Assembly: GCA_011364985.1 (NCBI GenBank)
Contig: RDOC01000003.1
Location: 1 to 64,000, forward strand
DNA: 64,000 bases
Direction: 5' to 3'
Source of the DNA: Candidatus Thorarchaeota archaeon
GTDB taxonomy: Archaea; Asgardarchaeota; Thorarchaeia; Thorarchaeales; Thorarchaeaceae
The first letter of the stretch is position 1. Each line of letters begins with the position of its first letter. Of the stretch, positions 6,929-7,036 are shown one piece after another. Under the pieces are notes generated by a model. It did not search any database, was not told the DNA's origin, and saw only the letters and a list, made by a program, of their open reading frames with translations. A program made the position numbers and the translations under genes.

Positions 6929-7036
6929 ATGGAATTGGAATGGATCGAGGAACCTATCGATGTGTGGGAAACTACAGAAGAACTTGAAGCATGCAGTTGC
7001 TTCACGGCATGCTTTACTTGTGTTCTCTTCTGGTAG
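6929..7036 (+). CDS. Putative RiPP precursor peptide, 35 aa: MELEWIEEPIDVWETTEELEACSCFTACFTCVLFW
   Basis: GGAGGA RBS at 6915-6920, ATG 6929, TAG 7034; acidic leader plus four-Cys core; lies just upstream of peptidase and rSAM-SPASM genes. Confidence 0.8.
   Translation: MELEWIEEPIDVWETTEELEACSCFTACFTCVLFW

What the first reader, a model, noticed from the sequence alone, without database searches (positions are those of the whole stretch)
6929..7036. Unannotated 35-aa Cys-rich RiPP precursor hidden under a mis-started ORF
Seen: GGAGGA, 8 nt, then ATG gives MELEWIEEPIDVWETTEELEA-CSCFTACFTCVLFW*. It has a strongly acidic leader with a repeated W..E pattern and a hydrophobic 14-aa core with a tandem CFT repeat (C-x-C-x3-C-x2-C) ending in Trp. 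It is below the ORF-track cutoff and overlaps the false 5' end of ORF 6991. Established: short acidic-leader/Cys-core peptides next to rSAM-SPASM enzymes with an N-terminal RRE are sactipeptide/ranthipeptide-type precursors. Inference: a new thioether- or cyclophane-crosslinked peptide from a probable Asgard archaeon. The core also contains CxxxCxxC, so Fe-S or metal binding is an alternative role.
Basis: partly seen in the sequence, partly recalled or inferred. Interest (0 to 1): 0.85.

Follow-up and report, generated by a model that had tools for sequence, protein, structure and literature searches.

The report
Hidden radical-SAM peptide precursor in Asgard
A 35-codon gene that gene callers missed in an Asgard archaeon very probably encodes the substrate peptide of the radical-SAM enzyme two genes downstream; this is a known kind of peptide natural-product system, here with an unusual extra ligase and a leader motif shared with bacterial systems.

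Summary
The ORF at 6929-7036 is there exactly as described. It is very probably a real precursor peptide (RiPP) for the RRE-radical SAM-SPASM enzyme at 7761-9146.

Main evidence:
- Its N-terminus (W-I-E-E-P) fits a leader motif, M-x-(F/Y/W)-(I/L)-x-x-P. I found that motif on 52 Cys-rich small ORFs on the same strand as homologous rSAM genes in 28 of 160 fetched loci, against 1 on the opposite strand.
- These include curated Clo7bot and CefA peptides, and two peptides in a Thermococci MAG.
- In its own genome it is the only one of 25,663 small ORFs that has both the W-form of the motif and a Cys-rich tail.
- It carries the same GGAGGAG ribosome-binding box as the regulator and the rSAM gene.

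The peptidase, rSAM and ligase have homologues on contigs of one length (6,698 bp), probably a single contig. I could not fetch the DNA of the closest homologues, so direct conservation of the peptide remains untested.

The peptide and the enzyme fall below every curated family cut-off. The translationally coupled PaaK-like ligase and the minigluzincin peptidase set this clade apart. No rSAM orthologue was found in 399 other genomes of the phylum.

The chemistry (thioether cross-links) is inferred, not shown. rSAM RiPP clusters in Asgard archaea have already been predicted in print. An earlier first-reader note of this scan describes the same operon on this window.

The parts
6291..6905 (+). 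ArsR/HTH_20-like winged-helix regulator (204 aa from TTG 6291; the protein atlas holds it from residue 9, ATG 6315)
   Evidence: No Pfam hit at E<=0.01. Atlas structure match TM 0.63 to an HTH_20/HTH_5 regulator cluster, and feature hits to ArsR-type clusters, several from Promethearchaeota. GGAGGAG lies before the TTG.
6915..6921 (+). Shine-Dalgarno box GGAGGAG, 7 nt before the peptide's ATG
   Evidence: GGAGG at -16..-4 occurs at 6.8% of long-ORF starts against 0.94% of all ATGs. The same heptamer precedes the regulator and the rSAM gene.
6929..7036 (+). Precursor peptide gene, 35 aa (P0001). The acidic leader is residues 1-21 (6929-6991), the leader motif W-I-E-E-P is at 6941-6955, the Cys/aromatic core is residues 22-35 (6992-7033) and the stop is at 7034-7036.
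7072..7740 (+). Soluble HExxH metallopeptidase (minigluzincin, M48-like), the candidate leader peptidase. The start is unresolved (ATG 6991, ATG 7009 or GTG 7072). HExxH is at 7321-7335.
   Evidence: Pfam PF01435 scores 23.9 bits against a cut-off of 20.3. PDB proabylysin 4JIU matches at E 3e-4, from about 20 residues after 7072. Homologue P0126 (49% identity) keeps HExxH. No SD box precedes any candidate start.
7761..9146 (+). RRE-radical SAM-SPASM peptide maturase, 461 aa
   Evidence: Pfam Radical_SAM and Fer4_12. NCBIfam best hits are CefB 254 bits, Clo7bot 196 and PapB 140, all below their cut-offs. Invariant C104/C108/C111 and the SPASM Cys at 334, 354, 393, 396, 402, 406 and 422. Model pLDDT 91.6. 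Foldseek best matches are CteB and TigE at TM about 0.7.
9139..10467 (+). PaaK-like adenylate-forming ligase (442 aa from ATG 9139; overlaps the rSAM stop by 8 nt)
   Evidence: Weak NCBIfam and PDB hits to PaaK-like ligases (AjiA1, NatL2). Invariant T-S-G-S-T-G-x-P loop, Y-x-x-x-D and G-R-S motifs. Homologues lie directly after the rSAM gene in L010 and on a contig of the same length as that of rSAM homologue P0003.
10494..10943 (+). 149-aa protein of unknown function, the last co-oriented gene
Evidence: No Pfam, NCBIfam or PDB match.

Best explanation
The 35-codon ORF is a real gene for the precursor of a ribosomally made, radical-SAM-modified peptide.

Shown: the ORF, its ribosome-binding box, its place in a co-oriented operon (regulator, peptide, HExxH peptidase, RRE-rSAM-SPASM enzyme, PaaK-like ligase, unknown protein), and its match to a leader family found beside related enzymes in bacteria and archaea.

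Inferred mechanism: the N-terminal stretch (W-I-E-E-P) is held by the enzyme's N-terminal RRE domain. The radical SAM core then abstracts a hydrogen from core residues, and the four cysteines form thioether bridges with help from the SPASM clusters, as in CteB, PapB and CrpC. The minigluzincin peptidase removes the acidic leader. The coupled ligase adenylates a carboxylate of the peptide for one further step, such as ring closure or acylation.
For: 1. The leader motif M-x-(F/Y/W)-(I/L)-x-x-P is found on 52 Cys-rich small ORFs on the rSAM strand in 28 of 160 loci. The opposite strand has 1, and the background rate is about 0.3%. Members include true Clo7bot peptides beside a true Clo7bot maturase (729 bits) and CefA peptides.
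2. There are archaeal examples: two tandem peptides starting M-F-N-W-I-E-x-P lie directly upstream of an rSAM gene in a Thermococci MAG. One metagenome peptide shares W-I-E-E-P-I with ours.
3. A profile built from the W-subset without our peptide ranks it first of 25,663 small ORFs in its genome (18.3 bits, E 0.003). It is the only ORF with both the motif and a Cys-rich tail.
4. The distance from Pro to the first Cys is 13, within the family's usual range of 8-16.
5. Outside its close homologues, the enzyme's N-terminal domain is most similar to those of Clo7bot-type loci.
6. The enzyme has RRE, rSAM and SPASM parts, and its best match is CteB.
7. The same GGAGGAG box precedes the regulator, the peptide and the rSAM gene.
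8. The peptidase, rSAM and ligase have homologues at 49-64% identity on contigs of one length, 6,698 bp. L010 keeps a small ORF, the rSAM and an overlapping ligase.
Against: - No DNA of the closest homologues (62-64% and 33-37% identity) could be read, so conservation of this particular peptide is untested.
- The shared element is only about 7 residues long, and the first family set was seeded from our own peptide.
- An unbiased iterative profile search seeded from a Clo7bot peptide does not reach our peptide.
- No curated peptide model hits it, even at E<=10.
- In the full-length tree our rSAM sits outside the clade that holds most motif-bearing loci, although the deep branches are weak.
- Our peptide has two extra residues before the aromatic position; 50 of 52 family members have M-x-aromatic.
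- The operon has no transporter.
- There are no expression or mass-spectrometry data.
Confidence: 0.8

Rival explanations
1. The peptide is real and is the enzyme's substrate, but the chemistry is not thioether formation. It could be carbon-carbon cyclophane links on the Phe and Trp residues, cyclopropyl formation or epimerisation, with the cysteines serving another role.
For: The same RRE-rSAM-SPASM scaffold carries out several chemistries. The second-best structural match is TigE, a cyclopropylglycine synthase (PMC10878394), and SuiB, a C-C cross-linker, also matches. The 14-residue core holds four Phe and one Trp. Cyclophane-forming families appear among the weaker NCBIfam hits.
Against: The strongest family and structure matches are thioether or Cys-rich peptide maturases: CefB, Clo7bot, TIGR04463, PapB and CteB. 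All members of the leader family are Cys-rich, with a median of 6 Cys, which points to Cys as the reactive residue.
Confidence: 0.15
2. The ORF is a chance open frame and is not translated. The rSAM enzyme acts on another substrate, or on a peptide encoded elsewhere.
For: The ORF is short and unannotated. It has no hit in protein databases and no curated family hit. The peptidase ORF may start inside it. Conservation beside the closest homologues is untested.
Against: Four features coincide: the leader motif, the Cys-rich tail, the strong SD box, and the position on the right strand 725 nt before the rSAM gene. No other candidate precursor was found in the genome.
Confidence: 0.08
3. The peptide is translated but acts as a small metal-binding or Fe-S-binding peptide, not as a modified natural product.
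For: The core contains C-x-C-x3-C-x2-C, which could bind a metal.
Against: The core is very hydrophobic and aromatic, unlike soluble metal-binding knuckles. The N-terminal motif links the peptide to precursor families defined by co-occurrence with peptide maturases. The operon also holds a peptidase and a ligase, which are typical tailoring enzymes.
Confidence: 0.03

Closest known systems
Clo7bot system (NCBIfam TIGR04333 peptide, TIGR04334 rSAM/SPASM maturase), defined by comparative genomics only
   Same: It has short Cys-rich peptides with the N-terminal leader M-x-(F/Y/W)-I-x-x-P, encoded on the same strand as an RRE-rSAM-SPASM maturase. After its own close homologues, our enzyme's N-terminal domain is most similar to those of such loci.
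   Different: Our peptide gets no hit to TIGR04333, and our enzyme scores 196 bits against a cut-off of 600. Ours is a single copy, not a tandem array of 4-9. It has two extra N-terminal residues, a strongly acidic leader, and a short aromatic core with 4 Cys. Our operon adds a PaaK-like ligase and a minigluzincin peptidase.
CefA/CefB 'Cys-every-fifth' system (NCBIfam NF038108 / NF038107)
   Same: CefB is the best-scoring curated family for our enzyme (254 bits). Peptides that pass or approach the CefA model also start with the same leader motif (weakly in the Thermococci MAG).
   Different: Both cut-offs are missed (254 against 600 for the enzyme; no hit for the peptide). The Cys spacing in our core is 2-4-3, not every fifth residue.
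CteB/CteA (SCIFF, thermocellin) and PapB/PapA ranthipeptide systems; archaeal CrpC/CrpA of Methanococcus voltae (PMC13692751)
   Same: They share the enzyme architecture (RRE, rSAM core, SPASM with two auxiliary clusters). CteB is the top match by sequence (E 3e-25) and by fold (TM about 0.7). Their substrates are Cys-rich.
   Different: Sequence identity is about 20%, and our enzyme is below the SCIFF and PapB family cut-offs. The leader is unrelated. CrpA is a whole protein, not a 35-aa peptide. None of these systems has a coupled PaaK-like ligase.
Genome-mined rSAM RiPP clusters of archaea (PMC12144867)
   Same: That paper reports predicted ranthipeptide and sactipeptide clusters across the Asgard, TACK, DPANN and Euryarchaeota groups, so this kind of locus has already been predicted in Asgard genomes.
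   Different: In the passages I read, the paper names no product or precursor for Asgard clusters and says functional characterisation remains limited. Here the precursor is located and tied to a cross-domain leader family.

Membership tests
Clo7bot peptide (TIGR04333) | HMM score of at least 31 bits | tested here: not met
   No hit even at E<=10. True members score 35-56 bits.
Clo7bot peptide (TIGR04333) | N-terminal leader M-x-aromatic-I-x-x-P followed by a Cys-rich tail | tested here: met
   Ours reads M-E-L-E-W-I-E-E-P, the motif with two extra residues, followed by 4 Cys in the last 14 residues.
Clo7bot peptide (TIGR04333) | Several tandem copies beside the maturase | tested here: not met
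   It is a single copy. No second motif-bearing Cys-rich ORF was found in the genome.
Clo7bot maturase (TIGR04334) | HMM score of at least 600 bits | tested here: not met
   195.8 bits. A true member (L093) scores 729.5.
CefB maturase (NF038107) / CefA peptide (NF038108) | HMM scores of at least 600 and at least 30 bits | tested here: not met
   The enzyme scores 254.1 bits. The peptide gets no hit.
PapB ranthipeptide maturase (NF047865) and SCIFF maturase (TIGR03974) | HMM scores of at least 340 and at least 425 bits | tested here: not met
   140.3 and 108 bits.
RRE-rSAM-SPASM peptide maturases (the class that includes sactipeptide and ranthipeptide synthases) | CxxxCxxC radical SAM motif | tested here: met
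   C104, C108 and C111 are invariant in 57 homologues. Pfam Radical_SAM E 2.5e-19.
RRE-rSAM-SPASM peptide maturases (the class that includes sactipeptide and ranthipeptide synthases) | SPASM seven-Cys motif (C-x9-15-G-x4-C ... C-x2-C-x5-C-x3-C ... C) | tested here: met
   C334, G349, C354, C393, C396, C402, C406 and C422 are invariant or nearly so.
RRE-rSAM-SPASM peptide maturases (the class that includes sactipeptide and ranthipeptide synthases) | N-terminal winged-helix RRE domain | tested here: met
   In the model, residues 1-90 form four short strands and three helices at pLDDT about 90. The full-length alignment to CteB includes its N-terminal domain. Pfam PqqD is not detected.
Sactipeptide / ranthipeptide (product class) | Cys sulfur to alpha carbon (sacti) or to beta/gamma carbon (ranthi) thioether bridges in the mature peptide | not testable with these tools
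   This needs co-expression followed by MS/MS and NMR.
Peptidase M48 / minigluzincin | HExxH zinc site and a Pfam PF01435 score above the gathering cut-off | tested here: met
   23.9 bits against a cut-off of 20.3. HExxH is conserved in P0126. Proabylysin 4JIU matches at E 3e-4.
PaaK-like ANL adenylate-forming enzymes | Phosphate-binding loop and core ANL motifs; family HMM cut-offs | tested here: inconclusive
   The motifs are invariant in 5 homologues. Only weak local hits to PaaK-like models and structures were found, far below the cut-offs. The structure model failed (pLDDT 44).

The most novel reading that the evidence does not exclude
This may be the founding example of a distinct RiPP subclass. 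A Clo7bot-type leader peptide would be cross-linked by an RRE-rSAM-SPASM enzyme and then processed by a dedicated, translationally coupled PaaK-like adenylating enzyme together with a minigluzincin peptidase, for example by head-to-tail ring closure or by acylation after leader removal. The operon, found in only 1 of 400 sampled genomes of its phylum, would have been acquired horizontally, and it would give the first Asgard peptide natural product with an identified precursor.
Probability: 0.3. Interest if true: 0.6.

Novelty: new variant of a known kind. Interest (0 to 1): 0.45.

Why it matters
I know of no peptide natural product from an Asgard archaeon that has been characterised. Published mining lists predicted clusters and says functional characterisation remains limited (PMC12144867).

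Locating the precursor turns a bare 'radical SAM protein' annotation into a small set of genes that can be tested directly by co-expression.

The leader motif M-x-aromatic-I-x-x-P is shared across Bacillota, Actinomycetota, Chloroflexota, a Thermococci MAG and this Asgard genome. It gives a simple handle for finding unannotated precursors beside this large enzyme superfamily.

The conserved rSAM-ligase coupling suggests a tailoring step that I did not find described for thioether peptides.

Tried and rejected
- The single metagenome scan and the single genome-collection scan used generic rSAM motifs and returned only relatives at 35% identity or less.
- The peptide is too short for the search for homologous proteins. 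The exhaustive phmmer search found nothing, not even the peptide itself. This says little, because such ORFs are not called as genes.
- tblastn of the peptide against its own genome found no paralogue.
- A second leader family lies beside nearer rSAM clades (L134, L012, L034, L100, L049) and has an 'L-W' leader with Cys/aromatic tails. It looked similar, but its profile does not hit our peptide, so I treat that likeness as compositional.
- An iterative profile search seeded from one Clo7bot peptide stalled within two loci.
- The ligase structure model was unusable (pLDDT 43.6).
- P0126 is truncated and could not settle the peptidase start.
- Kinship of named MAGs is not reported by the genome search, so I used aEF-2 identity instead.
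- The 'dispersed repeat' after the cluster turned out to be conserved tRNA 3' ends, not a mobile element.
- The 'V4R-like' label for the 149-aa protein is not supported.
- Searches for 'Clo7bot' and for six leader strings found no paper.

Full report
**Observation.** The sequence is as described. ORF 6929..7036 (+) gives a 35-residue peptide (P0001).
- An in-frame TAG lies directly before the ATG, and GGAGGAG sits at 6915-6921.
- Residues 1-21 hold nine acidic and no basic residues.
- Residues 22-35 form a hydrophobic core with C-x-C-x3-C-x2-C, a tandem C-F-T and a terminal Trp.
- ORF 6991..7740 overlaps it by 46 nt in another frame.
- The peptide has never been called as a gene. A full HMMER pass over 1.8 billion representative proteins did not return even the sequence itself.

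**Surroundings.** Six co-oriented genes form a tight block.

| Coordinates | Product | Evidence |
|---|---|---|
| 6291-6905 | ArsR/HTH_20-like regulator | atlas structure TM 0.63 |
| 6929-7036 | the peptide | |
| up to 7740 | soluble HExxH peptidase | Pfam M48 above its cut-off; proabylysin 4JIU, E 3e-4 |
| 7761-9146 | radical SAM/SPASM enzyme, 461 aa | see next section |
| 9139-10467 | PaaK-like adenylate-forming ligase, overlaps the rSAM stop by 8 nt | |
| 10494-10943 | 149-aa protein with no match | |

**The enzyme.**
- It has C104/C108/C111 and the full seven-Cys SPASM motif.
- The model is confident (pLDDT 91.6), and its first 90 residues form an RRE-like strand-and-helix domain.
- The best solved relatives are CteB, the SCIFF thioether synthase, by sequence (E 3e-25) and by fold (TM about 0.7). 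TigE, a cyclopropylglycine synthase (PMC10878394), comes next.
- Its best curated families are CefB (254 bits), Clo7bot (196), TIGR04463 (183) and PapB (140). All are far below their cut-offs.

**Is the small ORF a real precursor?** I could not read the DNA of the closest rSAM homologues (62-64% and 33-37% identity). Those 160 distant loci were still informative.
- A tblastn search with the peptide picked out small ORFs that begin M-(E/D)-W-I-x-(E/K)-P and end Cys-rich.
- Looking without that filter showed the general form, M-x-(F/Y/W)-(I/L)-x-x-P, often in tandem arrays of 4-9 copies.
- Counted with internal controls, 52 Cys-rich small ORFs within 3.5 kb of the rSAM gene on its own strand carry the motif, in 28 of 160 loci. 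One Cys-rich ORF on the opposite strand does, and the rate among ORFs that are not Cys-rich is about 0.3%.
- The set includes true Clo7bot peptides beside a true Clo7bot maturase (729 bits), and peptides that pass the CefA model.
- Archaea use the motif too. In a Thermococci MAG, two tandem peptides starting M-F-N-W-I-E-x-P lie directly upstream of the rSAM gene.
- One metagenome peptide shares W-I-E-E-P-I with ours.
- In our peptide the distance from Pro to the first Cys is 13, within the family's usual range of 8-16.

**Tests within the window's own genome.**
- A profile built from the W-subset, without our peptide, ranks our ORF first of 25,663 small ORFs (18.3 bits, E 0.003).
- Five ORFs match the W-form of the motif and thirty have a Cys-rich tail. 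Only this ORF has both.
- The extended GGAGGAG box precedes the regulator, the peptide and the rSAM gene, but none of the three candidate peptidase starts. GGAGG is seven times more frequent before long-ORF starts than before ATGs in general.
- After its own close homologues, the enzyme's N-terminal domain is most similar to those of Clo7bot-type loci. This fits recognition of the same leader motif.

**Weak points.**
- The shared element is short, and the first family set was seeded by our own peptide.
- An iterative search seeded from a Clo7bot peptide does not reach ours.
- No curated peptide model hits it.
- In the full-length tree our enzyme and its close homologues lie apart from the clade that holds most motif-bearing loci, although those deep branches are weak.
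- A second leader family, beside nearer clades, resembles ours in composition only.

**Conservation of the cluster.**
- The rSAM (P0003, 64%), the ligase (P0123, 59%) and the peptidase (P0126, 49%, HExxH kept) are each recorded on a Logan contig of 6,698 bp, probably the same contig.
- A second rSAM and ligase pair shares a contig length of 7,494 bp.
- L010, the nearest locus I could fetch, keeps a small ORF 136 nt upstream, the rSAM gene, an overlapping ligase and an ABC exporter.
- The ligase family keeps the phosphate loop and other ANL motifs.
- The rSAM-ligase pair therefore defines this small clade.

**Organism and distribution.**
- The genome's aEF-2 is 60% identical to that of a named Promethearchaeota MAG, against 40-43% for Theionarchaea and Thermococci MAGs. 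It also has the second EF-2 paralogue seen in its relatives. This supports 'Asgard'. Earlier notes of this scan call the genome Thorarchaeia.
- No homologue of the rSAM gene at E<=1e-40 was found in 399 other genomes of the phylum, including 16 of the same genus.
- Nothing in window 1-11,200 matches same-genus DNA, whereas 12,999-14,509 does.
- GC content is unremarkable.
- The operon is therefore sporadic in this phylum and may have been acquired horizontally. That is an inference.

**Mechanism.**
- *Shown:* the gene order, the enzyme domains and the leader family.
- *Inferred from CteB, PapB and CrpC (PMC13692751):* the RRE binds the N-terminal motif, the radical SAM core abstracts a hydrogen from a core residue, and each Cys forms a thioether. 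The peptidase then removes the leader.
- *Speculative:* the ligase activates a carboxylate for ring closure or acylation.
- Other chemistries on the same scaffold, such as cyclophane or cyclopropyl formation, cannot be excluded.

**Comparison and novelty.**
- The system works like Clo7bot/CefA-type and SCIFF/ranthipeptide systems, but it is not a member of any curated family (see the membership table).
- Predicted rSAM RiPP clusters in Asgard are already in print (PMC12144867), and an archaeal ranthionine synthase has been characterised (PMC13692751).
- What is new here is the located precursor, the cross-domain leader motif, and the ligase and minigluzincin accessories.
- I rate it a new variant of a known kind, of moderate interest.

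Noticed in passing
window 11313-11455 and about 11709-11791: Directly after the operon lies a tRNA-like gene with about 70 extra nucleotides. It has a GGGCCGG acceptor 5' strand and D-arm, then inserts, then a T-arm and CCGGTCC-ACCA with a G3-U70 pair, which suggests tRNA-Ala. A second tRNA-like 3' half with an insert in the T-arm follows. ARAGORN and Rfam find neither. Their 3' ends explain the many short matches across the genus. The long ORF 11658-12845 probably starts well downstream of its TTG.
   Followed up: partly
G062 (Theionarchaea MAG, via L089) and G063 (Thermococci MAG, via L086): These two archaeal MAGs hold about 50 and about 29 matches to this RRE-rSAM-SPASM maturase family. 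Many are in tandem pairs or in clusters of up to six within 20 kb. This is a very large expansion of peptide maturases.
   Followed up: partly
L134 (Paenibacillus nitricinens chromosome), 3777-11845: This is a complete RiPP cluster: a LytTR response regulator, a histidine kinase, an rSAM/SPASM enzyme, a membrane HExxH peptidase, an ABC exporter and a 42-aa peptide ending in a run of Cys-Phe repeats. Related 'L-W' leader peptides with Cys/Trp tails lie directly upstream of the rSAM genes in L012, L034, L049 and L100. No curated family hits them.
   Followed up: partly
window 2747-4213: An 81%-identical second copy of this membrane-protein segment lies at G000:C18:102584-104054. This is consistent with the cassette array described in earlier notes of this scan.
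   Followed up: no
G000:C17:10390-12396: The genome has a second, divergent aEF-2 paralogue. Two related genomes (G017, G038) and the Promethearchaeota MAG (G061) have one as well.
   Followed up: no
L010 5734-5847: The small ORF upstream of the nearest fetched rSAM-ligase pair may start at an internal Met, giving M-K-I-I-Q-Q-T. That would be a degenerate form of the leader motif, aliphatic instead of aromatic and Thr instead of Pro, followed by an acidic pair and C-C-F.
   Followed up: no
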